Shown: piece after piece, positions 3,001-48,423 of the stretch
How the letters are laid out: every line of letters begins with the position of its first letter
Position numbering within the stretch: the first letter of the stretch is position 1
Source: an uncultured Rickettsiales bacterium
Lineage (GTDB): Bacteria; Pseudomonadota; Alphaproteobacteria; Rickettsiales; UBA1997
Length of the DNA: 64,000 nt
NCBI GenBank assembly: GCA_944391025.1
Contig: CALXSC010000110.1
Span: 74,627 to 138,626 of the forward strand
Direction of reading: 5' to 3'
Notes under the pieces: model-generated
Told to the model about the DNA's origin: nothing
What the model saw: the letters and a program-made list of their open reading frames with translations, nothing else
Databases searched by the model: none
Translations under genes and position numbers: made by a program

Positions 3001-6000
3001 ATAATTCCAAAGCCTAATCAAGGGTATATCCTCTTGCAGCTGCAGCAGACATAACCTGCGTCATTAACGACAATTCAGATTCATCTGCGTGATGTTCTTT
3101 ATCAAGCTGAATCCCAGCCTAATATAGATAAATTTCATAGAAATTTAATGGAATTTCATCATTTACATCATTATATATTTTAGCAGAATTTATGTTAGCT
3201 GCACCCTGTTTTACAGCTCCTTCGGTACATAAATAATGAACATCAGAATGTTTTAAAGGCTATATAACATCTTCCTAAGTCTATGGAACAGTTACACCTT
3301 TGTTTAAAATCATTACTCCGTTCATAGCTTTTACTAAATTTCTAATGGAAGATTCTGAAGGAACTAAATGATCATTTTTAAGTTCCATTGACCACTCTCC
3401 TCCAAAATATTTCCATAAGGCATAGTTAGAAACAATCTAAGTCTACTCTTCCTCTATTATTTCTTGACCTACCGGATTACCACGTTCATCAACTTCCTAT
3501 ATAGTTCTGCTATACCAATCATCTCCAAGATTTTGTATATTAATAACTTTATAATACTTACCATTTTGTTTATAGAAAATAGGTTCATATTCTATTTTCC
3601 CATTCCAAGATTGTGTAATGTCTAAAGTTTCAATTCCTTTATTTCTTTTAGCGTTATACCAACTAAAGTTTGTCATTTTCTTCATCAACCTCTGAAGTAA
3701 AGGAGAATTACGCATAAATTCATTAGTAATTGCGAATCCTGCTGTTTTAATAATACCTCCAGTACCAGTTCTTTCATCTTTAAAATGTACAAACTATTTT
3801 TTAGTCATTCCCGCTTTAGCTCCGCCAAGAGAATTATTTTCAAGATAAACTACCCCAGGGTGCACAAATGTACCACCATCAAAAGCCTTAATAGCAGAAG
3901 TCACTCCAGTGATAGTTCCTTGAAAGTCTTTAATATCCTCTATTACAGCAATATTATACCATCTGGGACATCCATTAAGTAAATTAAGAACAAATTCATG
4001 CATAGCAGCTGTCATAGATACATTTCTCTTATTCTAAGCATTCAATTGAAATGCTTCTTGTATGAGTACGTCCGAAGATCCACTTTTTTCTGGATGTGCT
4101 ACAAAGGAACCCACAGTGGTAAGCATAAATTCCTATGTAAACAAGTAATCCAAATCGTTAAATTGTTCTATTAGTGGATTTAATTGAATGTCATTTATAT
4201 TATCTAAAATCCAACTTTCATAATCAGTTTCTCCACTTTTTATAAAGTCTCTAGTAGATGTTATAGGTCTACCATTAATTTTAGCTAATATTAAGTTCCC
4301 AGAAGCATCAATCCAATTAAGGGCAGCTTCTTCACTACTATATTTACTTCTAATCCATGCTAATTCTGGCTACTTAGTATTGGTTGTATTTAATTTAAAA
4401 TTTTCTTTAAGTAAGTCAGTTAATACTTGTGCTTTCTTTTGTAACCAAAATGATTTACCAGAAGGAAAACTTTCTATTTCATCTGTAGTAAAATCAAACT
4501 CAGTACTTAAAACTTCAGGCTAAAATCTAGCAATCTAAGATAAGATTACTTGATTAAAATATAAATCACCTTTACCTGTTTTACGATAGTGTACCTAATC
4601 AATAAATCTTAAGGGTTTTAAATCTTCAGATGATTCATTTACCTTATTTATTAAATAATCCAAATACTCCTTAGGTGTTTCTATATATGATCCATAAGTC
4701 TACTATATAGTTTCTATATTAGCATGAACAAACTCATTAAATTCCTTCCATATTGTATTGATATTTTTATTAGTAAATGCAGGTAAAGGAATTTTTAAGG
4801 ATCTTGCAGACTAGAATAACTAATATACATCCTACATGACAGAATTAAGCATATTAGAATATACATTTCCTAATTCGTGTGCAATTAATGCTTTTCTCTC
4901 CTATGAATTTAAGTCTCGTATTTTCTTAGTTTGCTATACTCCATCTTCTATTACAGTTACTTCCTAATTTAAATCAAAAGGCTTTCTACTGACAGTATTT
5001 TTATCAGAATTTACAGAAGGCAAGAATAAAACCTTTCCATTTCCATTTATCGGATTTTTATCTGAATCTTTTTCCATTAATCCCCCGGCAAAATCATATA
5101 CTAACCCAGATGTAATCATTTCGTTAATACTCATTTTATTGGATTGTACTGATCCTGTGTCGGGATCATAATATTCTTTCAAGGTGTAAATTCCTTCAGA
5201 AAGTGCTGGATTAGTTAATATTAAAAGATCTTTAGTAGCAGAATCCTCATTGCGTTCCTAAAGTTCATATTGCTATTGATATGAACCTAATAGTCTACTT
5301 AATGTTTGTTGACTCTAAGTATTACCTTCGCCATCTTTAACTTGTGTAGAACTTGTCGTACCTAAATAATTAGCTCTTGCTGTAGCAAGACTACGTAATA
5401 CAGGAATATCGTTACTATGTACTAAACTATCCAGTGTTATATTATTAGCTTCTATCTATTTATTATAAATATAGGTGTTAAGCACTACTCTGGATGCAAA
5501 TTCTAATAACTATCTATAAGTACTACTAGATTGATTATTACCAAGTCGAGCATTTACTTCATCCCGAAATTCAGATTGATTAGATAAATTTAATTGTAAT
5601 ATATCATCAATAAAAGGAAGAACTACTTTATAATCTTTTGCAATACTAAAATTAGATGGAGAATTAATCGTAACTTGTCCAGTAGCTGTTACAGTTATTT
5701 GTAATTCTGTATCAGGTATATTAAATGATATACTAGTTACATTATTTCCTAATGCGTTTTCTCTAAGATTATACTAATTTTTAAAAGAATCCCATTTTCC
5801 TTTTGCAATAGCTTTATTTCTAGAATTAATGGTAAGTTCTATACCTCTACTATAATTATCAATTGAACTATCTAACATTGGTCTGACCGTAATATTACCA
5901 TCCCTTCCTTTATAGTATTGAGCTAACTTAACTTCAAAAATAGAATTTACAGTCTATACTATATTACTATAATAATCACGTTCTGAGTTCGGGTCGGATA

Positions 6001-7411
6001 ATTCTCTAATACTTTTAGGTCCATTAAATAATGCTAAATCCAGAGAATATAATTTATTTAATTCATCTCTTGTGAAATCCTTAAATAAATCAGTTTCTTT
6101 ATTTTGTATGGTTTTATTAGATAATATTTTAAATAATAGATGACTATATTTTCCAGAATTAACTACTAAATTACAGATAAGTTCTCGTAAAGTCATATCT
6201 TGAATTGTTGCTAATTCTTCTTTAGTGAATCCTTTGTTTTCTAAACCAAGTCGTTGAATATAATTACTATCAAATCTTATATTAGCGGTACTTCTATTAT
6301 TAGCAAGATCTTTAATTTTTCCGATAATGTGCTGAAAATCATTAAAATTAAGATACCTTCCAACCATTGGAGTATTTGCTTGATTTAAATATAAAGGTGA
6401 ATTATTTACAGCTTGTCTAGTTACAAAATCGGATTCAGAAGCTATATCAATATTTTCACTATTTCTCCATGTAGTAGCAATTTTAGTAGTTTTTGTATCA
6501 ATTTTATATTTATCTTCTGTCATTAAATTAAAATTCTTTATCTACATTATATTACCACAATAATTAAGTAAATAAGAATCAAAATTTCGTAAAATTACAG
6601 CAGAATTATAGGCATCTAGTTCTTCCTTAGCACTGTTTCTTTGAGAAGAATTAAGATTAGAATCAGTCATCATACTATACAATCTAATAAGATTATCAGG
6701 AGATTTATTAAGTATATTTCGTTCTATCATATCTGATAATCTTTCTAATATACTAGTATATTTTCCATCCTAATCATATAGTCTAGCAGTTCTTAATAAC
6801 TCTTTTAATTCTTCCGACGCATTTGTACCTCTTACTCTTTCTCGATTAAGATATGTTGTAATATTAGATAATAACTATTCCTAATAATTTCTAATATTAC
6901 TATTCATTTCAGAATTAGTATTTACAGTACCTGATTTAAAGTTATCAGAATATCTATTAACAAATAAGCAATCAAATAAATCGCTGTTTGTGACATGTTG
7001 TACATAATTCAATACAGATGTAGCAGTGCCGTAGGCTTCATAAAGAAACTCTTTAGAAGCCTAGGCATTTACCTCTCTATATTCAGGGTTAGATAACTAA
7101 TCTACACTAATATCATTATAATTAACCTACTAAATATTATCTTTTATCTACTTTAAGGAATCCTAAATAGTTGTTAAGGTAAAGACATTAGGAAATTGAG
7201 CTAGTATTCCCCATCTTTCCGCAGAATTTTTTATTATTTCTGCCATATCTTGATAATCATTATCTGTTATATAAGTATCCGTTAAAGTCCTATATAATGT
7301 AGATAACTATTTAAGAAATTCTCCAGGAGATAATTCATTATTTTTATAAATCCTGAATAAACCTCCTAATTGTTTCTATATTCCTCTAGAATCAATATTA
7401 CATTTATCCAT
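1..7411 (-). CDS. giant virion-type RNA polymerase-like protein (crAss-like vRNAP), C-terminus beyond window start; needs TAG read-through
   Basis: ATG is + strand cat 7409-7411, one nt after the upstream TAA. Track ORFs at 242, 3497, 3794, 4964, 5954 and 6542 share one frame and each stops at TAG (+ cta). Hand translation from 7411 to 242 met no TAA/TGA. It contains IIAARIPAQCMQSYMPMKVVGF...LLLQGSDFDIDTVS. Confidence 0.7.
644..658 (-). other. DFDID (DxDxD) putative catalytic metal-binding motif of the RNAP-like double-psi beta-barrel
   Basis: Minus strand reads tcc gat ttc gat ata gat acc (S-DFDID-T), 33 codons upstream of the Met at 559. It is preceded by an ARIPAQ...S..M segment analogous to the RxP...S..M element upstream of NADFDGD in cellular RNAPs. 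Confidence 0.55.
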
Positions 7412-7412
7412 A

Positions 7413-10400
7413 TTAAAATTTTATTGTTATCACATTAGCTAAAGAACAAGAATTTGTTGACTATTTTTGTAACTCATTATCATACTTCATTAGAGTTTGT
7501 ATAGCAGAACTTAATTCTTTTTTCAATTCTTCATTTAATATATCTTTTGGCTAACTTTCTATTTCGTTTTTAGCCTTCTCATAGCTACTTTCCATACTTC
7601 CTTCGATGTACTATCCATAATTATCTTTAAACTCTTGGTAATTAGCTGATGCATTTAAAAGATCTGCAAAATCAATGTCATTATTCATAACTTCATTTAC
7701 AATATCTATATTCTTTATTATAGTATTGAAAGCTTTAGCAAGTTCAACATCATCCTAAGTCGGCTAGACTATCTCTTCTAACTATAACTATTCATTATCA
7801 TAACTAGCATTGTATGTTTTTCCATCAATATCTACTCTAAAATAAGAAACTCCTTGAATAGCATCAGGAATTTGAGTTATAGCGTTGTTTTCGGTATCTA
7901 AAAGCATAATCTATCCGGATAGTGTATCATGTTTCTTGCTTATAACTAATTCACCTTTATTATTTATAAATGCTATTTTCTTATTATTCTTTTTGTTTAT
8001 TTCATTAACAGCATTCCTTAGCATTTCTTGAATAGTTACAGAAGTATCTAGTTCTATGCCGCTATTTTTCTTTACTCTATTTTTTAGAGTTAGTTTATCC
8101 ACATCTTCTTTAGATAAAATATTCTAATTTATACTAGAACGTCCCATAAAATAATTCTAATGGTCTTCTTTTGTACATTTATGGTTTTTATTTTTAGGAG
8201 TAGGTACTAAAGCATTTAGAAAATCTTTAACTAATCCATCAATACTTCCTTTAAATATAGGAGAATCCATTTTACCATTAATCTAATAAGGTTTTCCATC
8301 TATAGAATAAGTATTCTAAGGTGTAACAGCATAGAATGGACCCATAGTAGGACTTGCCTTTCTTGGAATCCATGCATCATATCTAACTCCATTATCTTTT
8401 CCTATAATTCTTTGAACTAGATTTACATTACCTTCATTAAGACCTATTACAGTAGAATTTCCTCTTAAATTATTTACATCATATAAAATATGATACATAG
8501 CCATATCAAGCATTCTAGCTAAAGTTATTCCGTTTTTAAATCCAACAGAAGACCAATCCTAAGAAGAATCAAATAATGCATTTTTAGCAGCTTCAAAGTT
8601 TCCAGAACTCATTAAATCTAGTATGGTTTTCCTCGCTTCATAAACTTTATCATATAAGCTTTTATTTCTATTTTGAAACATGTTATTAAATTCATTATTA
8701 TCCATTAACTGATTAAATAATAAAAAGGATGTAAACATGTTTCCTATATGCTTTTTACTGTCTCTATCAGTTTTATTAGAAGATAATGCAAGTCTAAGAT
8801 TTTCTGCATATTCTCTAATTGAAGCAGCTGGAGGATAAACGTACATCAATTTAACTCTAGGCTATACACTAGGATCAGATAACTGTTTTTCAAAATATTC
8901 ATATATTTCTACATCAGTAGTAAGAGTATTATCATAAGAAACTAAAACAAATGGATTACCTTGATTACATACCTTAACATCATTACCAGTAGCATCAGTT
9001 ATTTTACCATCTAAAGAAACATAAACATGATCAGTTACTCTTACACTAGGATTTTCTTTAAACTTATCAATAGTTGTCCATTCTTTCTATGGATTACTAT
9101 TAGAATCATAATCAAAGCCAGGAACAGATTGATATTTACCTCTTCTAGTAATAAATTGAGGACCTATACTTGTAAATCCATTAACTATAGTCCAATTATC
9201 ATCATGTATAAACTATATAGTTCTGTCAGTAAAATTAAACAACTTTAATAAATCAACTAAATTTTCATAGTATTTATTATTCTCAAATTTACTTATCAAT
9301 TCAACTACGGCTTCATGTACAGTTTTCTTATCTTCTTTAATTAATTTATCGTATAATACAGACATTTCTGAAAATACATAAGCTCCATTCTCATCCTACA
9401 TTTTTAATAATGTTAATGGAGAAGATGGAGCAAGTAATGGCAATTCCAATAAGTCTCCGTTTTCTTTAGTCCCTATAATCGCCACTAAAGCTCTATTATG
9501 CCATTCACTACTTCTTGCATCTGAAGATCCGTTAAATAAAGTACGTTCTTCCTTACTCTTATTAAATGGAGTTGGATCAGATTCTAAGAAGTTTAACTTA
9601 TTATCTTTATCATGTCTGGCATGATTTTTTAATCCAAATGTAACATAAACTCCTTGAAGATTTAATTGTCTTTCAATATCTTCTATTAATTTAGCTTTTT
9701 CTTTAATAGTAAAGAAACTATTTCTTAAATTGGCTAATATAGAAATAAAACTCTGTAATCCATTTTCAGATTTATGTACTTTTCTATCTTTAATACCATG
9801 CAAATCATCGATTCTTAATAACCCATTTACACTATCTTTTCTTGCACGCTGTCTTTTAATACTTTCTTCTGGATTATTAGGATCGTTACCAGTAGGAGCT
9901 TTAGGTAAATCAGTTTTTTCATCCACTAAGCATCCTAATTCAAAAGTATTAAAAGAATGAAGAAGCATATCTATCTAAGCAACTCCATTTTCAATAGCTG
10001 CACTAGAACGAGGCGGATTTTCAGATTCGTTAGAGTTATCAATAGCATCTTTATATTCTTCATTAGAAAGACCCTATGTTAAAACTGCAGGAGCTTTATT
10101 ATCAGAATATTCATCTTTTTCATCAGCTTCGTGATCTTCTGCACTATTGTCAGGAGGATTTAATTGCTTAACTACGCCTAAAATATCCTCTCTTTTTATA
10201 GTTTGATCATCAATTCCTTCGCTTTTAGATTTAGCAGATACTGCTACCTTATAATTACCAGAATTAATTTCTGTTATAACTCCAAATACTTCCTAATCTT
10301 TGAATTTAAATTTTATAATATCCCCTACATTTAGTTCACCATCTCTCTGGTTAATATTTATATTGTCGACAGATAGTTGACTTAACTAAGCTTTTTCATC

Positions 10401-13400
10401 ATCAGGAATACTGTTTTCATCTATCATCTAAAGATTTGAGCCAAAAGTTTTACTTGTAATAGCAGATACAACATCAGGCTAGTGCGTAATTCTAGAATAT
10501 TTCTATTCAGCTTCTTTTAAAATTTGATCCAACTCTTCTTTAGATTGACTATTATTGATTCTATTAATTAATTCTCCTTTATATTTCTTATATTCAGGAG
10601 TTTCGGTTATAGGAGTTGTATCAATTCCTTCTGACAAGGTATTATTATTAGAATTTGAAGGAACTGAAACTATGTTTTGATTTTTAGTTCTAGCAATAAA
10701 TTCAGTTTTTCCTCCTTCAGGAACAGCTTTATTTAATAAATCAATTCGTCTCTAAATGAAATCCTACAATGCTTTAGCACTAATAGTCTAATCTAATTTA
10801 TTATCGAATTTTTTAATATTAAAAGATTTATTAGCAAAATGTGTTATTAACAAACTGCCTTGTTTAGATCTAGAAATTCCAGTATATACATCATTATGCC
10901 ATCTAGGATTTAAAGCAACAGCTTCTTCTGATTCAGTTGCTTCTATAATATAATATTGAGATTCATCACCCTAAGCAGATGTACCTTTTCTAAACTCAAT
11001 ATATTTAGAATATTTTTCGGAAGAAAGTAATTTATATATTGGAGAATTTTCACTCTAATAAATATATCCTATTTTTTCTCCTGGTTTTAGAGTTTTAACT
11101 AATAAATCTATATCAGCAATTACTTTACTTAATACTTCTTCACTATTTTGATCAGTTATTATCGAAATATTTACTAAATGCTATTTAGTGCCATATATTC
11201 CAGTTTCATCCTAATAATATCCAAGTGGTACTTGTCCTTTCAGATTCTATAAATACTACTAATATGATTCTACATTTTGAGTCTAAATTGTATTATCAGA
11301 TCTCATAGAGACTCCTAATTTAGGAGTTCTAATCATATTAATCCTATTAAGTTCTACTTGATTATTATAATCTTTTCCATTAAGATTTACTACATGTTTT
11401 CCAACAACTTTAGTTTGATCAAAATCTCCCGCAGTTATTACAGTAATTCCATATTTCTAAGCATAATTCTAAATCTAATCAAGATCAAAAGTAGTAAACT
11501 TGGAAATTTCATCTATTATAATAAGACTGGGAGGAGTACTTGTTTCAGTAATACCTAAAATTGATCGGATTTCATTTTCAGTTGTAAAACTATAATCATT
11601 TTTTGGAATTATATAATTTCCTTGATCATCCTACTAATATTCTATATAAGAAGGGTTAACTTCTTTCATCCAGCCTATTCTATCATAAGCTTTAGAACGT
11701 TTTTCATTTAATTGTAAATTAGTTAATAGATTCTAAGCACTATCTTGACTAGCTCCGTGTACTATGGCTACTCTATCAAGTATTTCTGGATGAAATTTCT
11801 ACAACAGTTTAATAACCTAATTAAATACCCCATAAGATTTACCACTACCTGGTATTCCTTCTATAAATAAAATATTAGAATATCTTGGAACAGGTATAAA
11901 ACTAAAGACATAATCCACTAAATTATCATCAGCTTTTATCCTTAAGTCTAGCTTATTGATAATCTATTCTCTCTATTCTTGTGTTCTGTTTTTCCAATCA
12001 TCCTTTACTGCTTTTCTATAAGCTTTAGTAAACTATTCAAATATTCCTCCATTTAAAATCTAAGCATATGATAAATATACTCCTAATTCTTGTGTAGGAA
12101 TTGGGGCAACCAGATTTTCAGAGGACGGATCAAGTACCTATTTATATTCTCCATAAAAACTTGAAGCCTTTATAGCAGCTTTACTAGCAATCCACCATAT
12201 AATAGAGTTATCATCTATTGATTTAGAATTTTCAGTTAATAAATCATTTCCTTTAGTATATAAATTAAATCTACTTGCATTAATAAATTCTGTTAATTTA
12301 TCAATATCATTAATTTTATCCTAGTTTTTCTAAAAGAAATCATAAATTGCATCCTAAAATTTAATATTTTCCTATTCAAATTCAACTCTTTTTTCAGTTG
12401 GAATACTTTTCTCATTACTTTTCTCTAAATCTTCATGTAAAGATAGATTATATACTACTGCTTTTAACTCATCAAAACCTTCCCATTGTTTTAATTTATC
12501 ATCATCAGGAACAGTTACAATAGATTTAAACCTTTTATAAAGTAACATATCCTTATTAAAAGCAACATTATCCTACTTAGATAATATTCTACCCTAGTTT
12601 AATTCAAATAAGTTTAGATGAAACTGTAATTTATTCAAAACAGCATCAATATCAGATACCATAACATCCGCTAAACTGCTATTTATTTCAGCTAATGTAG
12701 GAAAATCTCCTTTCATCTTCTTAGCTAATTCGTTTAGAGTAACATTATAACCATAAATATTATCCACATTAACTGCATCAGTTCTTGCAGCTAATACAGC
12801 AGTACGATAAATTTGAAGAGTGTTTATTGCATTTAATAATTCCTAAGAATATTCAGTACTAAATTTAGAAACATCTCCTATTGTATTATTAAATACAGCA
12901 TTTGTTTGATTTAATAATTCCGTAATATTAATAGGATTTTCACCTATTGATATTAAGAATTCGTTATAGCTGTCTTCAAATGGAGTTTCTTTTAATTCCT
13001 ATATAGTCTTAATATATTCTTCTATTTTCTATTTATTAGATTGTATCTAAGCTATTGATTTCTAGATTTCATCTCTTTTATCAATTATTTCTTTTATTGC
13101 AGCATCCTTCTATTCCTAACTATCAAACATTTTCAATGAAATAGCCTCTTCGTCTGCAATAACATTATCGAATTCATTAGTTAATATGTTAAGATTATTG
13201 TTATATAATCCTAGAGTAGTTCCTAATAATTGAATTAAGGCATTTTTAGCCTCAGCATTTAAATATCCTCCTTTAAGAATTGGTGCTATTCTTTCTTCAA
13301 AGATATTATAAAATAAGGAAGCCCTTATTCCGTCTCTTTCCCACGATTTATTGGTTATTCTTATTTCCTTTACTTCTTCGTTAGAATCTTTAGAAATCTC

Positions 13401-42191: not shown

Positions 42192-42321
42192 TTAAGCTTC
42201 TCTTAAAATAGCTGATCTATGAGGAGTGAAAACGGCCACCCCTGAATATTGCATCATTACTAATTTGCTGCCAGCAACGTTGCTAGCGACTTCACCTGAC
42301 GTTTTACCGTCATAACCACCT
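42192..42321 (-). CDS. MCP exon 9 (43 codons, GGYDGKTSGEVASNVAGSKLVMMQYSGVAVFTPHRSAILREA*)
   Basis: Starts after ...GAUAUAGUCUAAAUUUG| (omega G at 42322). TAA at 42192-42194 is anchored by plus ORF 42020..42211. A terminator follows. Confidence 0.6.
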
Positions 42322-45300
42322 CAAATTTAGACTATATCTTTAACTTATTCTAAGTATTTAAATGTATAATTATGACAATGCTTAGCTTGTCCTCTTAATA
42401 CTTTAGAAACATTGGGAAATTCTTTTCTACATTCCCTTAAAGTATTAAAAACTTTTACTAATTGTCCATCCATTGTATATTGTCCTATTTTTCTTCTTTT
42501 ATTTACAGTTTGTTCTTTATCCATCTGTTTTATAAAAGATAAATTATATGTATTTATCTATTCAGTAAATTGATTAATAATAAAATTCTAAAAATTAATT
42601 GCCCTTTCGTAAGTATCATATATAGCTAAAGTAAATCTTCTAAACGCACTATATCCATACTTTTTAATATCTTTATGAAAAGGAATTTTGGGATGCTTTA
42701 ATTCTGGGTTACTCTAAAAAATATTAATAGAGTTTCCAATATATCCATCAAATACTGTAGGATCTTCTGTTTCGTGAACTCCTACATAAATTTTATTATT
42801 TATTAAATTAGTAGTTAAATATACAATATATTTCATAATTTATACTTTTATTAAGTTATTTACCATTTCCACTATAAAATAGTGTACCTCTATCCAGAGT
42901 AGTCGTTGAACTTTACTGTGAGCTGATTTATAATCTTGCCTATTCACAGTCTTAGCTGCTGATTGTTCTAAAAAGAAGTTCCCAGCAATTAGATAAATTT
43001 ATTATTCAAAAGAGTCACCTCTTAAGCGGCGCAAGTGGTGTAGTTTACGCCTACTATCTTATTGGTAATAATATCCTTACCAGCCAGCATGAATTTACCA
43101 ATGGCAGGCATTCCTGAAGTCTTATCGGCGGTAAGGTCGATGCATACGCCATAGCCTTTATCGGGATATTCTCTAGTTAAAGCACGGTCTACTACGAAAG
43201 ACAATTGATTACCAGCGTAAACATAGGTATCAAACGTAGCTCCTACTTTAATATATCCACCTTGTCCTTTATTAGCAGACTTAGAATACATATAAGTACC
43301 CATTGTCTTATAATTAGCAAGATATTCACCAAGGACTGTGTTAATATCCTACCATAACTTACGGTTTAAAACAAATACCCCAATTGTGTTATTCTAAAGA
43401 TTGGGAATCTTTAACTCTTATATTTTCATATAAGTTCAGACTATATCTTTATCCCGAAGGACATCTCCCATTTCCATCTAAAAAAAAAGATGTATGCCAT
43501 TTCTGGACTTACTAGTCGTTGAGCCTTACCTAAAAATTAGGTCTTGGTTGCTGATCATCCTCGACTTTACGTTAGGATTTTCCAGCAGTTAGAGAGATTT
43601 ATTTTTGCAGCTCTTTCAAGCTACCCAAGCTAGGTTTGTTAACTTGTTACCCTGATCTTCTTGTGCTTTGTCAGCCATTGCGTTCATAATTATATTAAAC
43701 AGCTGCAGATTAGGTTTACCAGCGTAAACAAACTTGTCTGCAAACTCTTCAATTTGAGGAATGGCTCCTTGTCCTATATATCATAACGTTTTATCCATTA
43801 TTGCTAATGGTATCGGACTATATCTTCAACTTAATCTCTTTATTAAGTTGCCTCCCTTTTCCACTTATAAAAGTGTACTCTCTTTCGAGATAGTCTCTGA
43901 ACTTTACCCTAAATGGGTCTTAGCTGCTGATTGTCCCAGTAGGATTTCCAGCAATTAAAGAGGATTATTATTGTAATTATCACTAATTACCCCTACATAT
44001 ACTTTAGGACTTAAGTATTTTATAGGCCTAGCAGTATCAGGATCTACGATTGTTGCTTTCAATTATGTTACCCTAATAGCTCTTTATCTATTAGTTCTAT
44101 TACTTTACCATCGTAATAGTTCAGACTATATCTTCATCCTATAAAGGATGCTTTGCACTCGTGGAGCTTATAAAGCTCTAGTCGTTGAACCTTCCTTAAT
44201 AAGGCTTGGCTGCTGATTATCCTAATATTATTGGAGGATTTCCAGCAATTCACAAAGTTTTCAATAATAAATTACTTTATTATGCGGCAAAACGCTTACC
44301 GTTGACATCCACATTGCCTTTGTTGAGTAATACATTACTATTAACTTTATATTTCTATAAAGATTAGACTATATCTTTACTTTATATCCTATTATCGTTT
44401 ATAAAGTACCTCCCTTTTCCACAATTGTGTACTCTACTTGTTTATTCGTATAAGTATTTCTCTTATACTATACGTTCGATAGTCGTTGAACGTTTCTCCT
44501 TGGAGACTTCGCTGCTAGTTATCTTAATAAGATTTTCCAGCAATTAAAGAGGTTTATACAGAGCTATTACTTAAGCAGTTTTAACCCTGTGTTGGTAGCG
44601 TACATAAAGGTTTCAAGAAGCTCTTTTTCCTTTTTAAGCATTTTATATACACCTTCACCCTTGGCTATATTCTTATCGTCGGCAATCTTCATGAATACGT
44701 CTTCCTAGAGAGCGTATAAGCTAGACCAGCTAGCGTCTGCTCTAAACGTAGTCATAAAATTTCTGTGAAGCTCTACTTGCGACTAGAACTTGCTATAGCC
44801 CTCCTCCGTTGGGCCTAATATTTCTACTAGAACTGACTATATCATTAACTTTTTAATCTAAATACTTATACACGTAACCTTTTTGGGTTTTATTTGTACC
44901 ATTAAGTACTTTCCATACTGAAGTGCCATTCTCCTTTTCAGCAGCTGTAGCAGAATCATAAATTTGGACTAAGTTACCTTCTAAGTCATATTTGCCTACC
45001 TTTCTTTTTGTTTTTGGCTTTTTGGCAGCATACTTAGGTAATTCTTCTAAGCTCCATAAAAATCCACCTTTACATTTTTCTTTTTGTTTTAAAGCTCTTG
45101 ATATATTAGAGGTAGGATTATCTTGTTCTGCTTCTAATTGTGAATTATATTTCTTAATAAATTCACCAGTCTCTCCATCGTATTTACATACCATTCTTCC
45201 TTCTACATATCTTAGTCTAGCTTTAGAATAATTTTCATCTTTAACTTCACAAAAATAATATTTATTTTTATAAGAGATTCCAAATATTCTACAATTCTTA

Positions 45301-48300
45301 AGACAAGATGAAGAAATATTTAAATTTTTAGAAGCTTGTACTTGATTAGGAAATTCATATAAAAGATTACCTTCTATAGAATAAACAAATAAAGGAATTT
45401 GATGATTTTCTCCTAAATTATAAGTGGAAATATCAAGTTTATCTACTTTAGTATTTGTCCATAGAAAACCTTTCCCTTTAATTTTTAAAGTAATAGCGTG
45501 TCCTATTAAAGAGTCATCACATCCCATTTCTATAGAAGCAGCTCTAATACTCTCATATTCTCTTATATAATTTCCTTCTAAATCATATTGATAACACGGA
45601 ACAATTATATAGAAATTATCATCAACTCCTCCAAGAATCATATTGTACACATCATCCCTTGCAAGAAACTTTTCATTTACTAATTCTCTCTCTAAATTAG
45701 AAGCTTCTTCTAATGTATCAAATACTGCTAATGTTTTCCTTCTAAAATTCTTAGGACCATACTTTTTTACTGCAAATTGAAAATGTGTTTTAGGATGATT
45801 ATATGTGTTAGGTTGAGTTGCTAGTACTCCACATCCTATATATCCATCAAATATATCAGGATTTACTGTTTTATGAACTCCAATATAAATTTTATTATTC
45901 ACCAAATTGGTTGTTTCGTATACTATATATTTCATATTATTTAAAATTTTAAAGTTATTTACTATTTCCATTATCTAATAATGTACGTCTTGCGACTAGT
46001 CGATGAACTCCTATAAAGTACCGTCTAAATTAGACTAGTTACTAAATAAAAGCTGCTGATTACCATATATTTCTACTTAGGCTTCCAGCAATTAAGTAAA
46101 TTTTTTCTTAATAAATCACTTTATTAAGGTCCGAATTATTTCAGACAATTCAGGTACGGCTACAGATTGGAATGTCGTTAACATGCCAGCCTAGCACCCA
46201 TCTACATCGAGTGTAGTGTCAAAATCGTTATCGATTAAGCGAACTTGCACTTCCCAGAAATTCATTTATAGACTATATCATTTACTATATTTAAATATAT
46301 AATTATCAAAGTATCTATCTCCTTGTTGAATATGTTTTAACTTAGAAGAAGGAACATTATATTTTTCTCTTACTTCTTTTAAAGATTTTAAAGTTTCAAT
46401 GTAATTACCAAATTTGTCATATATTTCTACACAAATTCCATTTCCTTTTCTTTTTACAGGAATTTTATCTATTTTTTCTAAAGATATATAAAAATCCTTA
46501 TACCAATTTCTATTATGTGTAAAAATGTGTCCTATATAATCCCAGGAATGTAATCCTATAACATTCATTAATTGTTTACCTTTATACTCTCCTATAAAAT
46601 TATTATTAACATCATAAACATAGAACATTTTATCTATATAATTTTTTCTAGAACTAGGTTTAAATTCATCAACTACAGTATTAGAAACATAATATTGTTT
46701 TTTTATAAGAGTTTGGTATTTTATAGCTCTACTAAGTTCTCCTCTATCGTATTTAATATAATTTGCACATTCAGTTTGTGAAGAAAACTCCATAAGCATC
46801 TTTCCGTCTTTGTTATAGAGATATGTTATAGAGGTAATAGGTTTATTAGAGTATTCACTAATATCCATAATAGGACTAGTTGACCAAAATGAATCTAAAA
46901 AAACACATTTATTTTTTTTAGGACTACTCCATCTAGAAATAGGGTACCCATAAAATTCACTGGCATCTATAGATTTTTCCCAAATCTTTACTAATTTTCC
47001 AGTTAAATCATATTGATATAATGGTTTAAATCTTTCCTCATATGCACCTCCTAAAGCAACATTATATACATGTGATTGTTTAATGAAATCTTCGGTTACT
47101 ATTTCATGTTCTTTGTTATAAGCATCTTTCCAATTATCATATACATACAAAATTTGTCTTTTAAAAGCGTCTACTCCATATTTTTTTACTGCATATTGAA
47201 AAGGAGTTTTAGGATATTTATATGTGCTTGGTTGATTTGTATTTATTCCGCATCCTATATACCACGGATCCATTGTTATTTCATTTTTTATTCCATGTAC
47301 TCCTACATAGATTCTATTTAAACCATTAATTTGAGATTTAATATTTGTTGTTAAGTAAACTATATATTTCATAAGTAATTCAGTTTTTCAATTATTAAAA
47401 ATAATAATTTATGGATCTCTCCTAGTCGTTGAACTCTCTTGTCGTTACAAGCAAGCTGCTGATTGTTCTATTATAAGAAGTTCCCAGCAATTTAAAGAAT
47501 TTATTTTCATAATAAATATTTTATTTATTAACAGCGGGACAATTACTGGTTATCCCGCTTACGAATGGGTCTGCTAACCACTTGACATTGCTGTTTCGTT
47601 GCGTCAATTCTGAAAATATCATACTTTTGATAGTAATTTTCAGTAAACGCCATAGTGATTTCCGAACCATTATCACCTGTGTCGGTAGGCTATTCGGCAA
47701 ATGCAATCTTTTTAATATTATTGGTTTCCACTTGCCATTCAAATACCATTGAAGATGACGAAACGTCAAAGTTACTGGGTTTTTCGTCTTTATAAAAGAC
47801 GTTTCTCAAACCATCCGTAATAAAATTCAAGGTATTTTGTGTGTACATACGGGCTACAACACCCAAACGATAGGGTTTAGCACCAAGGTACTTACTCCAG
47901 TCTTCGTAGGTCTTCGTGTCCAAAAGTGTTAACTTATAGGCTCTTTATCCTATAATTCATACAATTTACCATCTTGTATGATCAGACTATATTATTGCTA
48001 TCCTGCGCTCGTGTCTGGATTATATTCTAATAAAGTTCTTTTAACTATAGGATTAGGATCTATACCTGCATATATCTATGCTTCTTTTAAAGAACTAAAT
48101 ACAGCATCACAAGATATTGTAATACCTCCAGATAGAATAACTGCTGTACAAGTATACCATTTACAAGGTATCAATCCGAAAAATATTCTATTAGATTCTA
48201 CTCTATACTGAATAGTTCCATCTTTTAATTCTTCTTTTATAATCCTTTTCATATTAGTTTCACCAGGTAGTCGTTGAACTTTTTAAAGTTGTTAACCTTT

Positions 48301-48423
48301 AACTTAGCTGCTGATTACCCCATAAGTATATGTAATGGAGGGTTTCCAGCAATTCACAGGATTTTTTATGGGCAACACTTTACCCATATTAGGAATCTTA
48401 CTTGTAAAACTTGCAACTAACAT
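42192..48423 (-). CDS. major capsid protein gene, nine exons interrupted by eight group I introns (spliced CDS 1,494 nt, 497 aa)
   Basis: Exons are 48423-48382, 47932-47552, 46262-46143, 44806-44584, 44344-44298, 44059-43989, 43772-43627, 43380-43047 and 42321-42192. They join in frame, which I verified by counting. The gene lies directly after a scaffold-like gene and is followed by a terminator. Length and the C-terminal ...REYPDKGYGVCIDLTADKTSG... are plausible for an MCP. The MCP call itself is positional. Confidence 0.7.
42322..43046 (-). mobile_element. group I intron 8 (725 nt) carrying a short GIY-YIG ORF
   Basis: P1 GGCGU|AA...UUGCGCC, P TAATTGCTGGGAAC, Q CAATCAGCAGCT, R AGTTCAACGACTAC (+ tagtcgttgaac ~42900), ORF 42836-42345, S AAAGATATAGTCTA (+ gac at 42330), omega G at 42322. 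Confidence 0.8.
42345..42836 (-). CDS. short GIY-YIG homing-endonuclease-like ORF (163 aa) in intron 8, with three in-frame TAG
   Basis: Product is MKYIVYLTTNLINNKIYVGVHETEDP...KYGYSAFRRFTL... plus one YTMDGQLVKVFNTLRECRKEF...GQAKHCHNYTFKY DNA-binding-type module. TAA at 42345-42347 lies 9 nt before the S element. Confidence 0.6.
43047..43380 (-). CDS. MCP exon 8 (~111 codons)
   Basis: Starts after ...AACACAAUUG| (omega G at 43381). It includes track ORF 43022..43303 down to ...NKIVG, and ends GGCGU| in the P1 helix GGCGU|AA-ACUACACCAC-UUGCGCC. The track tail VNYTTCAA* is intronic read-through. Confidence 0.65.
43381..43626 (-). mobile_element. group I intron 7 (246 nt, ORF-less)
   Basis: P variant TAACTGCTGGAAAATCC, Q GATGATCAGCAACC, R GGCTCAACGACTAG (~43513), S AAAGATATAGTCTG (+ gac at 43439), 3' hairpins CTTATAT-GAAA-ATATAAG and AAAGATT-CCCA-ATCTTT. 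Confidence 0.7.
43627..43772 (-). CDS. MCP exon 7 (~48 codons, QGAIPQIEEFADKFVYAGKPNLQLFNIIMNAMADKAQEDQGNKLTNLA)
   Basis: Ends AGCUU| paired with GAGCU (U.G). The acceptor could be at 43772 or 43781; both keep the frame. Confidence 0.45.
43773..43988 (-). mobile_element. group I intron 6 (~216 nt, ORF-less; both ends +/-15 nt)
   Basis: P TAATTGCTGGAAATCC, Q CAATCAGCAGCT, R variant AGTTCAGAGACTAT (+ tagtctctgaac ~43891), S GAAGATATAGTCCG (+ gac at 43816), 3' hairpin CCATTA-GCAA-TAATGG. Confidence 0.65.
43989..44059 (-). CDS. MCP exon 6 (71-nt micro-exon, KATIVDPDTARPIKYLSPKVYVG; 3' boundary uncertain)
   Basis: Starts after ...AACAUAAUUG| (omega G at 44060). The 5' splice site of intron 6 was placed after GGGGU by analogy and phase. 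I could not find a convincing U.G P1 pair for it. Confidence 0.4.
44060..44297 (-). mobile_element. group I intron 5 (238 nt, ORF-less)
   Basis: P GAATTGCTGGAAATCC, Q TAATCAGCAGCC, R GGTTCAACGACTAG (~44179), S GAAGATATAGTCTG (+ gac at 44124). The 3' hairpin CTATTAC-GATGGTAAA-GTAATAG has the same loop as intron 1. Confidence 0.75.
44298..44344 (-). CDS. MCP exon 5 (47-nt micro-exon, ..NSNVLLNKGNVDVNG)
   Basis: Flanked by complete intron cores. It ends CGGU| in the P1 helix CGGU|AAGCGUUUU-GCCG. The phase is consistent with exon 4 (+1) and exon 6 (0). Confidence 0.5.
44345..44583 (-). mobile_element. group I intron 4 (239 nt, ORF-less)
   Basis: P TAATTGCTGGAAAATC, Q variant TAACTAGCAGCG, R CGTTCAACGACTAT (+ tagtcgttgaac ~44480), S AAAGATATAGTCTA (+ gac at 44367). 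I counted the length base by base between exons 4 and 5. Confidence 0.75.
44584..44806 (-). CDS. MCP exon 4 (~74 codons; 5' boundary uncertain, 44770-44826)
   Basis: Open frame EEGYSKFQSQVELHRNFMTTFRADASW...ETFMYATNTG. The 3' end is CAGGGU| in the P1 helix CAGGGUU...AGCUCUG. Several G-preceded in-frame acceptor positions are possible. Confidence 0.45.
44807..46142 (-). mobile_element. group I intron 3 (~1,336 nt; 3' end uncertain) carrying a GIY-YIG homing endonuclease ORF
   Basis: P1 GUCU|GAA...UUCGGAC, P2 CTTAATAAA-GTGA-TTTATTAAG, P TAATTGCTGGAAGCC, Q TAATCAGCAGCT, R variant GTTCATCGACTAG (~46008), ORF 45971-44853, S AATGATATAGTCAG (+ gac at 44835). Confidence 0.7.
44853..45971 (-). CDS. 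GIY-YIG homing endonuclease (I-TevI/Seg-like) in intron 3, TAG-free
   Basis: This is the 372-aa track ORF. The conserved start is probably the Met at 45935 (MKYIVYETTNLVNNKIYIGVHKT). It has four repeats of the YDLEGN.I..Y.S...A......S.I......K..GF.W type (NUMOD/IENR-like). The stop is TAA. Confidence 0.8.
   Translation of the reverse strand: MEIVNNFKILNNMKYIVYETTNLVNNKIYIGVHKTVNPDIFDGYIGCGVLATQPNTYNHPKTHFQFAVKKYGPKNFRRKTLAVFDTLEEASNLERELVNEKFLARDDVYNMILGGVDDNFYIIVPCYQYDLEGNYIREYESIRAASIEMGCDDSLIGHAITLKIKGKGFLWTNTKVDKLDISTYNLGENHQIPLFVYSIEGNLLYEFPNQVQASKNLNISSSCLKNCRIFGISYKNKYYFCEVKDENYSKARLRYVEGRMVCKYDGETGEFIKKYNSQLEAEQDNPTSNISRALKQKEKCKGGFLWSLEELPKYAAKKPKTKRKVGKYDLEGNLVQIYDSATAAEKENGTSVWKVLNGTNKTQKGYVYKYLD
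46143..46262 (-). CDS. MCP exon 3 (40 codons, NFWEVQVRLIDNDF...VAVPELS)
   Basis: Starts after ...GAUAUAGUCUAUAAAUG| (omega G at 46263). It ends GUCU| in the P1 helix GUCU|GAA-AUAA-UUCGGAC. It contains one in-frame TAG. Confidence 0.6.
46263..47551 (-). mobile_element. group I intron 2 (1,289 nt) carrying a GIY-YIG homing endonuclease ORF
   Basis: P AAATTGCTGGGAAC, Q CAATCAGCAGCT, R AGTTCAACGACTAG (+ tagtcgttgaac ~47424), ORF 47372-46278 in the R-S interval, S AATGATATAGTCTA (+ gac at 46271). The P1 has 10 bp with a U.G pair. Confidence 0.8.
46278..47372 (-). CDS. GIY-YIG homing endonuclease in intron 2, TAG-free
   Basis: This is the 364-aa track ORF: MKYIVYLTTNIKSQINGLNRIYVGVHG..., KYGVDAFKRQIL, and repeated YDLTGKLVKIWEKSIDASEFYG-type modules. 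TGA at 46278-46280 abuts the S element. Confidence 0.8.
   Translation of the reverse strand: MKYIVYLTTNIKSQINGLNRIYVGVHGIKNEITMDPWYIGCGINTNQPSTYKYPKTPFQYAVKKYGVDAFKRQILYVYDNWKDAYNKEHEIVTEDFIKQSHVYNVALGGAYEERFKPLYQYDLTGKLVKIWEKSIDASEFYGYPISRWSSPKKNKCVFLDSFWSTSPIMDISEYSNKPITSITYLYNKDGKMLMEFSSQTECANYIKYDRGELSRAIKYQTLIKKQYYVSNTVVDEFKPSSRKNYIDKMFYVYDVNNNFIGEYKGKQLMNVIGLHSWDYIGHIFTHNRNWYKDFYISLEKIDKIPVKRKGNGICVEIYDKFGNYIETLKSLKEVREKYNVPSSKLKHIQQGDRYFDNYIFKYSK
47552..47932 (-). CDS. MCP exon 2 (127 codons)
   Basis: Begins after G 47933. Its first nucleotides AACACUU are complementary to the intron 1 guide AAGUGUU (P10). It covers track ORF 47690..47923 plus 46 codons beyond its TAG, and ends ...RPIRKRD at the U.G pair of the intron 2 P1. 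Confidence 0.65.
47933..48381 (-). mobile_element. group I intron 1 (449 nt) with a small non-GIY ORF
   Basis: On the minus strand: P GAATTGCTGGAAACC, Q TAATCAGCAGCT, R AGTTCAACGACTAC, an ORF, S AATAATATAGTCTG (+ gac at 47985). Two 3' hairpins follow (ATACAA-GATGGTAAA-TTGTAT and TTATAGG-ATAAAGA-GCCTATAA). Confidence 0.75.
47992..48252 (-). CDS. 86-aa ORF of unknown function in intron 1 (two in-frame TAG)
   Basis: ATG 48250-48252, TAA 47992-47994, overlapping the S element. Product is MKRIIKEELKDGTIQYRVESNRIFFGLIPCKWYTCTAVILSGG.... It occupies the same R-S position as the GIY-YIG ORFs but has no GIY-YIG motif. Confidence 0.35.
48382..48423 (-). CDS. MCP exon 1 (MLVASFTSKIPNMG; the start could be the second ATG at 48387)
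   Basis: ATG 48421-48423 lies 17 nt after the scaffold TAA. The exon ends ATGGGU, paired in the P1 helix ATGGGU|AA-AGUG-UUGCCCAU with a U.G at the splice site. Confidence 0.55.

What the first reader, a model, noticed from the sequence alone, without database searches (positions are those of the whole stretch)
42345..48252. Intron ORFs differ in their relation to the recoded codon: two long GIY-YIG genes are TAG-free, the short copy and a non-GIY ORF are not
Three introns carry paralogous GIY-YIG ORFs. All begin MKYIVY.TTN...NKIY[IV]GVH. Each lies between the R and S elements, and each stop is within about 20 nt of S. The 372- and 364-codon ORFs have 3-4 NUMOD/IENR-like repeats and contain no TAG at all, although the host gene and its neighbours use TAG freely.

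The 163-codon copy in intron 8 has three in-frame TAG and only one DNA-binding module. Intron 1 holds an unrelated 86-codon ORF with two TAG.

One reading is that the full-length endonucleases are code-neutral, so they can be translated both before and after the switch to TAG suppression. The short copy would then be either adapted to the recoded state or decaying.
Basis: partly seen in the sequence, partly recalled or inferred. Interest (0 to 1): 0.7.

Follow-up and report, generated by a model that had tools for sequence, protein, structure and literature searches.

The report
TAG-free intron endonucleases, recoded crAss-phage
In a gut phage that reads the stop codon TAG as glutamine, two selfish endonuclease genes inside capsid-gene introns avoid TAG far more than chance allows, and a third uses it; related phages show the same two habits, but endonuclease length does not decide which.

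Summary
The window is a TAG→Gln recoded crAss-like phage. Its 472-aa major capsid gene (42192-48423, minus strand) is split by eight group I introns, and four carry ORFs in the P8 loop.

The two long GIY-YIG/NUMOD endonuclease ORFs (364 and 360/372 codons) have 0 in-frame TAG among 12 and 11 Gln-type codons. Host genes use TAG for 52% of such codons (P about 1e-4 each). Out-of-frame TAGs are plentiful, so the avoidance concerns translation.

The pattern generalises. Of 65 homologous endonuclease ORFs in TAG-recoded contigs, 41 are TAG-free (5 expected).

It is bimodal, not a rule. Intact full-length relatives, including an 80%-identical orthologue at the same capsid site, carry 5-10 TAGs, mostly at Gln positions. 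In TGA-recoded phages the same family uses TGA for 79% of Trp codons.

The 163-codon copy belongs to a conserved short-form lineage whose members all read through 3-4 TAGs. This copy has TAG at the catalytic Glu and is probably nuclease-dead.

Best reading: some endonuclease lineages are selected to avoid TAG, others have adopted the recoded code. These are known elements showing a new codon-usage pattern; interest is moderate.

The parts
42192..48423 (-). Major capsid protein gene (472 aa when spliced; 5 TAG, 14 CAA, 3 CAG). Exons: 48423-48382, 47920-47552, 46262-46143, 44806-44608, 44344-44298, 44059-44022, 43781-43642, 43380-43047, 42321-42192 (includes stop TAA).
   Evidence: tblastn against the intron-less 475-aa MCP of MT835470.1 and in-silico splicing. 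Pfam PF23898 Crass_capsid, 36.2 bits against a cutoff of 27.
47921..48381 (-). Group I intron 1 (461 nt), holding an 86-codon orphan ORF.
   Evidence: Partial RF00028 hit at 48363-48242. R at 48278-48268 and S at 47992-47985. Exon ends in U, intron ends in G.
47992..48252 (-). Intron-1 ORF: 86 codons, 2 in-frame TAG, stop overlapping S. Coding status unproven.
   Evidence: No Pfam, PHROG or NCBIfam hit. No homologue in any related locus fetched. Called as a gene on the Logan contig.
46263..47551 (-). Group I intron 2 (1289 nt), at MCP residue 137/138.
   Evidence: R at 47433-47423 and S at 46278-46271. Splice junctions.
46278..47372 (-). GIY-YIG/NUMOD homing endonuclease ORF: 364 codons, 0 TAG, 12 CAA, 0 CAG, stop TGA overlapping S.
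   Evidence: NUMOD1 E 1.8e-10, PHROG 314 E 1e-12, TIGR01453 E 4e-10. The 68% orthologue L082_3098 has 5 TAG.
44807..46142 (-). Group I intron 3 (1336 nt), at MCP residue about 178.
   Evidence: RF00028 hit at 46148-45987, 50.8 bits. R at 46007-45997 and S at 44842-44835. Splice junctions.
44853..45971 (-). GIY-YIG/NUMOD homing endonuclease ORF: 372 codons from the first ATG, or 360 from MKY at 45935. 0 TAG, 11 CAA, 0 CAG.
   Evidence: NUMOD1 E 1.3e-20, PHROG 314 E 1e-27. AF2 model with pLDDT 87, best PDB match the I-TevI catalytic domain. 1989 homologues.
44345..44607 (-). Group I intron 4 (263 nt, no ORF).
   Evidence: RF00028, 80.9 bits. P1 pairing with a U·G at the splice site read from the sequence.
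44060..44297 (-). Group I intron 5 (238 nt, no ORF).
   Evidence: RF00028, 110.1 bits..
43782..44021 (-). Group I intron 6 (240 nt, no ORF).
   Evidence: RF00028, 97.7 bits..
43381..43641 (-). Group I intron 7 (261 nt, no ORF).
   Evidence: RF00028, 78.1 bits..
42322..43046 (-). Group I intron 8 (725 nt), at MCP residue 430/431.
   Evidence: Partial RF00028 hit at 43052-42858. R at 42910-42900 and S at 42337-42330..
42345..42836 (-). Short-form GIY-YIG ORF: 163 codons, 3 TAG, 5 CAA, 1 CAG. It has a nuclease domain plus one NUMOD-like module. TAG replaces the conserved catalytic Glu and a conserved Arg.
   Evidence: Orthologues of 160-172 aa. L095 and L096 orthologues have 3-4 TAG; dN/dS is 0.26 overall and 0.15 downstream of the TAGs. 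0 of 200,000 shuffles keep the frame open.

Best explanation
The region is the major capsid gene of a large-genome crAss-like phage (Crassvirales) in which TAG encodes glutamine. Eight group I introns interrupt it.

Three introns carry I-TevI-type homing endonuclease genes in their P8 loops. Each has an N-terminal GIY-YIG nuclease domain. It is followed by four NUMOD/IENR-like DNA-binding repeats in the long forms, or one in the short form.

These selfish genes fall into lineages with two heritable codon habits.

The two long ORFs belong to lineages kept free or nearly free of in-frame TAG. Purifying selection is the likely cause (inferred). Their protein can therefore be made whether or not TAG is being suppressed, and without the losses that suppression may cause.

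The short ORF belongs to a different, conserved short-form lineage. That lineage has adopted the phage's code and uses TAG as an ordinary Gln codon at host-like frequency. In this genome the short copy has TAG (Gln) in place of the catalytic Glu, so it is probably no longer an active nuclease (inferred).

Shown:
- the anatomy;
- TAG = Gln;
- frame-specific TAG avoidance;
- the bimodal pattern across relatives;
- read-through in the TAG-bearing copies.

Inferred: that selection rather than recent arrival keeps the long copies TAG-free. The selective reason is also unresolved. Candidates are efficiency, movement between phages with different codes, or timing.
For: (1) TAG-free status is improbable at host usage: P = 1.4e-4 and 3.0e-4. 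It is also frame-specific.

(2) Class-wide pattern.
- 65 homologous ORFs in TAG-recoded contigs hold 91 TAG, against 195 expected at host rates.
- 41 are TAG-free, against 5.2 expected; 0 of 20,000 simulations reach 41.
- A single reduced rate does not fit either: 15.8 TAG-free and 0.9 with at least 5 TAG expected, against 41 and 9 observed.

(3) The intron-3 lineage occupies the same capsid site (about residue 178) in nine related genomes. Their TAG counts are 0, 0, 0, 0, 0, 1, 1, 1 and 6.
- Its dS is 0.86-1.3 and dN/dS 0.11-0.2.
- Over comparable divergence (host dS 0.6 to above 2), about 40-50% of shared Gln columns in two typical TAG-rich host genes flip between TAG and CAA/CAG.
- Lack of time alone therefore does not explain the missing TAGs.

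(4) TAG-rich copies are functional-looking.
- They are full length, with no TAA or TGA.
- 15 of 19 keep the catalytic Glu; several keep 21 of 21 conserved residues.
- Their TAGs fall mostly on Gln columns.

(5) TAG decoding seems to carry a cost. The capsid gene and two neighbouring genes are persistently TAG-poor in all relatives.

(6) Some endonuclease sublineages are neutral in all three codes and occur in TAG-recoded, TGA-recoded and standard-code contigs. A standard-code relative with an intron-less capsid gene exists, MT835470.1.

(7) Short form: conserved architecture, 3-4 TAG in each orthologue, and strong constraint downstream of the TAGs.
Against: - No expression, proteomic or activity data exist.
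- TAG avoidance is not obligatory: close full-length orthologues carry 5-10 TAGs.
- In TGA-recoded phages the family uses TGA freely: 48 TGA against 13 TGG, 18 of them at conserved Trp columns. So the family shows no general avoidance of a host's recoded codon.
- The two window ORFs use CAA only. CAA to TAG needs two substitutions through rare CAG, so part of the deficit could be mutational lag.
- dS values are near saturation and come from a simple Nei-Gojobori estimate.
- Loci were retrieved with patterns from one lineage.
- Code calls for contigs are heuristic.
- Orthologues are not phylogenetically independent.
- Re-invasion of the same site from TAG-free sources cannot be excluded.
Confidence: 0.5

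Rival explanations
1. Temporal code-neutrality. The long endonucleases are kept TAG-free so that they can be translated early, before the phage's TAG suppressor acts, as well as late.
For: - They are translatable in either state.
- The published model for recoded phages has standard-code-compatible genes expressed first and recoded genes later.
- TAG avoidance appears selected.
Against: - The ORFs lie inside introns of a late structural gene on the same strand, so they would normally be transcribed when suppression is already on. No independent promoter could be identified.
- The only published case goes the other way: an intron endonuclease in an early gene of TGA-recoded Agate phages is enriched in TGA and is proposed to be delayed.
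- Sister endonucleases in the same gene tolerate 5-10 TAGs.
Confidence: 0.15
2. Amelioration lag without selection. The TAG-free ORFs are recent immigrants from genomes or lineages that do not use TAG as sense. They have not yet drifted to host usage. TAG-rich copies are simply older residents.
For: - Homing endonucleases are mobile, and intron content differs between close relatives (also for other Zeta-group phages).
- The family spans standard, TAG-recoded and TGA-recoded contigs.
- The window ORFs use only CAA, which needs two steps to reach TAG.
- Their GC (25-27.5%) is a little below host genes.
Against: - The intron-3 lineage sits at the same capsid site in nine genomes, with dS about 1, similar to host genes. 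It is nevertheless TAG-free or nearly so in eight of them.
- TAG-free copies hold 65 CAG codons, each one transition from TAG, and none has converted.
- The distribution is bimodal rather than graded.
- No near-identical copy was found in a standard-code genome; the closest cross-code pairs have dS of about 0.8-1.
Confidence: 0.22
3. Chance or composition: too few Gln codons, or a general lack of the trinucleotide TAG in intron sequence.
For: Small genes with 1-7 Gln-type codons in the window are also TAG-free.
Against: - There are 12 and 11 Gln-type codons, giving P of about 1e-4 each. Even at the lowest host-gene rate (0.18) the joint P is 0.01.
- Out-of-frame TAGs are abundant in both ORFs.
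- The pattern recurs in 41 of 65 homologues.
Confidence: 0.03
4. The short intron-8 ORF is a pseudogene that ends at its first TAG (40 codons); the rest is untranslated debris.
For: - TAG replaces the catalytic Glu and a conserved Arg.
- 5 of 21 conserved nuclease positions are lost.
Against: - There is no TAA or TGA in 163 codons at 23% GC; 13 are expected, and 0 of 200,000 shuffles stay open.
- Orthologues at 68-80% identity keep the same 160-165-aa frame, with 3-4 TAGs at mostly different positions.
- The C-terminal module downstream of the TAGs has dN 0.05 and dS 0.34.
- The internal Met of the window copy is itself TAG in L095, so separate initiation is unlikely.
Confidence: 0.1

Closest known systems
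I-TevI and relatives (GIY-YIG endonucleases encoded in phage group I introns, e.g. the T4 td intron)
   Same: - An N-terminal GIY-YIG catalytic domain. The AF2 model's best PDB matches are 1MK0 and 1LN0, with TM 0.60-0.67 on the target; TIGR01453 gives E about 5e-10.
- C-terminal modular DNA-binding region.
- The ORF is looped out of a self-splicing group I intron in an essential phage gene.
   Different: - The ORF sits in the P8 loop, with its stop abutting P7'.
- The proteins are 360-364 aa with four NUMOD1/IENR-like repeats.
- Pfam and NCBIfam scores are below the curated cutoffs, and no PDB match is found by sequence.
- The host uses TAG as Gln.
Group I intron endonuclease family of TGA-recoded 'Agate' phages (Borges et al., bioRxiv 10.1101/2021.08.26.457843)
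   Same: An intron-encoded homing endonuclease in a stop-codon-recoded gut phage, whose use of the recoded codon differs from the genome average. My TGA-recoded loci agree: 79% TGA in endonucleases against 58% in host genes.
   Different: The bias is opposite. There the endonuclease is enriched in the recoded codon, lies in an early gene and is proposed to be delayed. Here two endonucleases in a late gene avoid the recoded codon entirely.
Intron-rich MCP genes of Zeta/Delta-group crAss-like phages (Yutin et al. 2021, PMC7886860)
   Same: A crAss-like phage of 145-192 kb class (the identical endonuclease lies on a 160.8 kb contig), with its MCP split by several group I introns and with stop-codon recoding in late genes.
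   Different: - The published example has four interruptions and no alternative coding in that gene.
- Here there are eight introns, and TAG is used in the exons.
- That paper notes intron or intein ORFs containing recoded codons. It does not compare their usage with host genes or report TAG-free endonucleases.

Membership tests
GIY-YIG homing endonucleases (I-TevI type) | GIY-YIG catalytic domain: the GIY and YIG motifs, the catalytic Glu and the conserved Asn. | tested here: met
   - Motifs KYIVY / KIYIG, E82 and N98 are invariant in 20 homologues.
- PHROG 314 'homing endonuclease' E 1e-27; TIGR01453 E 5e-10.
- The AF2 model (pLDDT 87) best matches the I-TevI catalytic domain, prob 1.0, TM 0.60-0.67.
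- Caveat: Pfam PF01541 scores only 14.8 bits against a cutoff of 22.6, and TIGR01453 is below its cutoff.
- The short copy lacks the Glu.
GIY-YIG homing endonucleases (I-TevI type) | Separate DNA-binding modules (NUMOD/IENR-type) after the nuclease domain. | tested here: met
   - NUMOD1 E 1.3e-20 (two stretches) plus I-HmuI_NUMOD-like in the intron-3 ORF.
- NUMOD1 E 1.8e-10 in the intron-2 ORF.
- Weak hits in the short ORF.
- Four repeat units are visible in each long sequence and in the model.
GIY-YIG homing endonucleases (I-TevI type) | Site-specific cleavage of the intron-less allele, and homing. | not testable with these tools
   Indirect only. Introns and endonucleases are present or absent at the same capsid sites among related genomes. 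Intron-less alleles exist.
Group I self-splicing introns | Conserved core (P3-P8, with the R/S elements of P7) recognised by a covariance model. | tested here: met
   - RF00028: introns 4-7 score 78-110 bits over the full model.
- Intron 3 gives a 5' half at 50.8 bits. Introns 1 and 8 give partial hits at 34 bits, E about 6e-6.
- Intron 2 is supported only by its R and S elements and splice junctions.
Group I self-splicing introns | Exon ends in U (U·G in P1), intron ends in G, and removal restores the reading frame. | tested here: met
   All eight junctions obey U|...G|. The spliced ORF is 472 aa and colinear with intron-less homologues.
Group I self-splicing introns | Self-splicing activity. 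| not testable with these tools
   Needs in vitro transcription and splicing, or RNA-seq junction reads.
TAG→Gln (code 15) recoded Crassvirales phage | In-frame TAG throughout conserved genes, aligned to Gln in standard-code relatives. | tested here: met
   - ORF coverage is 9.4 kb under the standard code and 60 kb with TAG read through.
- 4 of 5 capsid TAGs align to Gln in MT835470.1.
- TAGs in endonuclease orthologues fall mostly on Gln columns.
- Crass_capsid and CrAss_Ring_1 score above cutoff.
TAG→Gln (code 15) recoded Crassvirales phage | Phage-encoded suppressor tRNA(CUA). | tested here: not met
   No tRNA gene lies in the 64 kb window. The rest of the roughly 161 kb genome was not available, so this says nothing about the genome as a whole.

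The most novel reading that the evidence does not exclude
Homing endonuclease lineages in recoded Crassvirales follow two stable strategies.

'Code-independent' lineages are held free of the reassigned stop codon by selection. They work before the code switch, or after homing into standard-code or differently recoded relatives, or without suppression losses.

'Code-committed' lineages depend on the phage's suppressor.

The same capsid gene can host both. This would make it a natural experiment on how a genetic-code switch gates selfish-element expression and spread.
Probability: 0.35. Interest if true: 0.6.

Novelty: new member of a known kind. Interest (0 to 1): 0.45.

Why it matters
Stop-codon recoding in gut phages is thought to act as a translational timer and as a barrier between genomes. 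Selfish endonucleases that move between phage genomes are sensitive reporters of both roles.

If TAG avoidance in many endonuclease lineages is selected, recoding shapes which mobile elements can spread and where. Intron endonucleases would also give built-in controls: TAG-free and TAG-rich paralogues in one late gene. These could be used to measure suppression timing and efficiency in crAss-like phages.

If it is only amelioration lag, TAG content becomes a rough clock for how long an endonuclease has resided in a recoded genome.

There is a practical point too. Gene callers that pick one code per contig will truncate one class or the other.

Tried and rejected
- Megablast of the region against 50,697 phage records found only a 35-nt match. 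Relatives had to be found by protein search.
- Single-protein locus searches found 1 and 0 loci. An alignment query was needed.
- A profile search of PDB sequences found nothing. Fold search was needed.
- My first pass at counting TAGs stopped ORFs at TGA and misread the TGA-recoded loci. I redid it code-aware.
- A regex detector missed some endonucleases and was replaced by an HMM.
- The idea that TAG-rich copies are decaying was rejected. They keep the conserved nuclease residues about as often as TAG-free copies: mean 18.6 against 19.3 of 21, with the catalytic Glu kept in 15 of 19 against 39 of 43.
- The idea of recent cross-code transfer was tested on two sublineages. dS is about 0.8-1 or more, so no recent transfer was shown.
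- The intron-1 ORF was checked as a remnant of the LAGLIDADG genes seen in relatives' first introns. No similarity was found.
- A possible ninth intron at 6142-6258 (R/S-like motifs) has no Rfam support.
- I inspected the sequence upstream of the endonuclease ORFs by eye for Bacteroidota-type promoter motifs and saw nothing convincing. The promoter scan tool was not used, because crAss-like late promoters are not sigma-70 type.

Full report
WHAT IS THERE

All genes in the window lie on the minus strand, and TAG is a sense codon. ORFs of at least 150 aa cover 9.4 kb under the standard code and 60.0 kb when TAG is read through. Typical genes carry 2.5-3.9 TAG per 100 codons.

The finding's interval is a single gene. 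Rfam finds group I introns at 44617-44345, 44307-44102, 44015-43794 and 43650-43417 (78-110 bits). It also finds 5' halves at 46148-45987, 43052-42858 and 48363-48242. Exactly eight R-like and eight S-like core elements lie in the interval, one pair per intron.

I used as guides the intron-less 475-aa capsid proteins of two unannotated gut phage records. MT835470.1 uses the standard code and MT835492.1 is TAG-recoded. With these I placed nine exons. Every exon ends in U and every intron in G. The spliced product is a continuous 472-aa protein that hits Pfam Crass_capsid above cutoff. Neighbouring genes hit CrAss_Ring_1 (above its cutoff) and CrAss_Ring_2 (24.7 bits, just below its cutoff of 27).

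Four of the five TAGs in the capsid gene align with Gln in the standard-code relative, so TAG = Gln. The identical endonuclease protein lies on a 160.8 kb public contig. This fits the large, intron-rich Zeta-type crAss-like phages described by Yutin et al..

THE INTRON ORFs

Each ORF sits between R and S, that is in the P8 loop, and each stop lies 0-10 nt from S.

- **Family assignment.** The two long ORFs and the short one match PHROG 314 'homing endonuclease' (E 1e-12 to 1e-27) and TIGR01453 'group I intron endonuclease' (E 4e-10 to 6e-7, below the curated cutoff). NUMOD1 is strong. Pfam GIY-YIG itself is sub-threshold.
- **Structure.** An AlphaFold model of the intron-3 protein (pLDDT 87) best matches the I-TevI catalytic domain and the NUMOD-like region of I-HmuI.
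- **Intron-1 ORF.** It has no family hit and no homologue in any related locus. Its coding status is open.

IS TAG-FREE UNUSUAL?

Across 34 host genes (19,369 codons) TAG makes up 52% of Gln-type codons: 536 TAG, 408 CAA, 82 CAG. With 12 and 11 such codons, all CAA, the long ORFs have P(0 TAG) of 1.4e-4 and 3.0e-4. None of the 20 host genes of at least 300 codons is below 0.18. TAG is common in the other two frames of both ORFs, so the avoidance is about translation, not RNA sequence. The refutation criterion 'not unusual genome-wide' is not met.

Two qualifications apply.
- The capsid gene itself and two neighbours are TAG-poor.
- A small lysis-type cassette is TAG-free.

DOES IT GENERALISE?

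The intron-3 protein has about 2000 homologues. I fetched 79 IMG/VR loci with an alignment query and eight long contigs from close relatives. I classed each locus by ORF coverage under the three codes and found endonuclease ORFs with an HMM under the locus's own code.

*TAG-recoded loci.*
- 65 endonuclease ORFs hold 91 TAG, where 195 are expected at host rates.
- 41 are TAG-free, against 5.2 expected. No simulation in 20,000 reaches that number.
- A single lower rate does not fit either, because 9 ORFs have at least 5 TAG where 0.9 are expected. The distribution is bimodal.
- The TAG-rich class (73 TAG, 67 CAA, 11 CAG) looks like host genes.
- The TAG-rich class is not decayed. Its members are full length, without TAA or TGA. 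They keep the conserved nuclease residues about as often as TAG-free copies do.

*TGA-recoded loci.* The same family uses TGA for 48 of 61 Trp codons (host 58%), largely at conserved Trp columns. This agrees with the TGA-enriched intron endonuclease reported for Agate phages.

CLOSE RELATIVES OVERTURN THE LONG/SHORT DICHOTOMY

Sister phages have the same capsid gene with different sets of introns.

- **Intron-3 lineage.** It sits at residue about 178 in nine related genomes besides the window's own, with TAG counts 0, 0, 0, 0, 0, 1, 1, 1 and 6. The copy with 6 TAGs is 80% identical to the window's, has 21 of 21 conserved residues, and four of its TAGs replace CAA at conserved Gln columns.
- **Intron-2 lineage.** The 68% orthologue of the intron-2 ORF has 5 TAGs.
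- **Other full-length copies.** Several in the same gene have 6 or 10 TAGs.

Full length therefore does not imply TAG-free.

SELECTION OR LAG?

Within the intron-3 lineage, dN/dS is 0.11-0.2 and dS is 0.86-1.3. In two typical TAG-rich host genes from the same genome pairs, dS is 0.6 to above 2, and about 40-50% of shared Gln columns differ between TAG and CAA/CAG. The phage background therefore turns Gln codons over on the timescale on which this endonuclease lineage stayed almost TAG-free.

TAG-free copies as a class hold 65 CAG codons, each one transition from TAG, and none has converted. This favours selection against TAG, or repeated re-entry from TAG-free sources, over simple lag.

Some sublineages are neutral in all three codes and occur in contigs of all three codes. 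One 238-aa lineage has neither Trp nor TAG in nine copies. However, the cross-code pairs are old (dS about 0.8-1 or more), so recent transfer is not shown.

The reason for selection is unresolved. Three candidates remain:
- efficiency, since highly expressed structural genes also avoid TAG persistently;
- movement between phages with different codes;
- early translation.

I found nothing for or against it beyond the fact that the ORFs lie in a late gene.

THE SHORT COPY

It is not a one-off remnant. Orthologues of 160-172 aa at 60-82% identity exist, and one cluster has 111 members.

The two orthologues I could read at DNA level have 3 and 4 TAGs at mostly different positions. dN/dS against the closest is 0.26, and 0.15 in the module downstream of the TAGs. 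The window copy's internal Met is TAG in that orthologue. The frame cannot have stayed open by chance. So TAG is read through in this lineage, and its TAG share (about half of Gln-type codons) is host-like.

In the window copy, TAG replaces the catalytic Glu (GAA in the closest orthologue) and a conserved Arg. Five of 21 conserved nuclease positions are lost. It is probably a translated but nuclease-dead protein.

COMPARISON WITH THE LITERATURE

The following are already published:
- intron-rich capsid genes and recoding in crAss-like phages;
- intron or intein ORFs containing recoded codons;
- a TGA-enriched intron endonuclease in an early gene.

I found no report of TAG avoidance by intron endonucleases in TAG-recoded phages, nor of a bimodal pattern, in the searchable library. 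That library is incomplete.

VERDICT

The elements are ordinary members of known kinds. The codon-usage pattern is a real and apparently undescribed feature of moderate interest.

Noticed in passing
window 53840-53454, 51136-50759, 50634-50062 (minus strand): A lysis-type cassette is entirely TAG-free in a genome where TAG is 52% of Gln-type codons. It comprises a 128-aa protein with an N-terminal hydrophobic helix, a DUF7841 protein and an Amidase_3 endolysin. The DUF7841 orthologue in a sister phage (L085 4257-4634) has 6 TAG and 0 CAA. This runs against the published idea that lysis genes are preferentially recoded.
   Followed up: partly
window 42192-48423 (MCP), 42108-41245, 40171-39059: The capsid gene and two downstream structural genes are persistently TAG-poor in this phage and in all relatives examined; for example, gene 42108-41245 has 0-1 TAG everywhere. 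This suggests a gene-specific cost of TAG decoding, possibly linked to expression level.
   Followed up: partly
L082 (GCA_964513435.1 contig, locus 1135-13247): A sister phage's capsid gene is even more fragmented. It has at least ten interruptions, with six GIY-YIG endonuclease ORFs (TAG counts 5, 0, 0, 6, 0, 3), one LAGLIDADG ORF and one HTH_36/DnaD_N-like ORF.
   Followed up: partly
L082 12336-13040, L085 12789-13535, L088 6903-7661: A non-nuclease-looking intron ORF of 234-252 aa, with HTH_36/DnaD_N-like hits, has 0 TAG in the two copies counted (L082, L085; 10-12 CAA each). In L082 and L085 it sits between capsid residues 431 and 432; the L088 copy lies further upstream in the gene and its TAG content was not counted. 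It shares the residue 430-432 region used by the window's short endonuclease. Its function is unknown.
   Followed up: no
L008 1791-2507, L041 10001-10714, L033 3391-4107, L014 4993-5706, L028 2357-3073, L017 9014-9733, L037 323-1039: A 238-aa endonuclease sublineage contains no Trp codon at all and no TAG in nine copies. These are spread over TAG-recoded, TGA-recoded and standard-code contigs (dN/dS 0.1-0.25). It is readable under all three codes.
   Followed up: partly
window 47992-48252 (minus strand): The 86-codon intron-1 ORF is an orphan. It has no family hit and no homologue in relatives, whose first introns instead carry LAGLIDADG genes. It may be spurious or very young.
   Followed up: partly
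window 1-64000: No tRNA gene, and so no suppressor, lies in this 64 kb of TAG-rich genes. The suppressor must be encoded elsewhere in the roughly 161 kb genome.
   Followed up: no
window 6142-6258 (minus strand): R-like and S-like group I motifs lie 100 nt apart inside the giant ORF 1-7420. No Rfam match appears even at E = 1, so this is treated as chance.
   Followed up: yes
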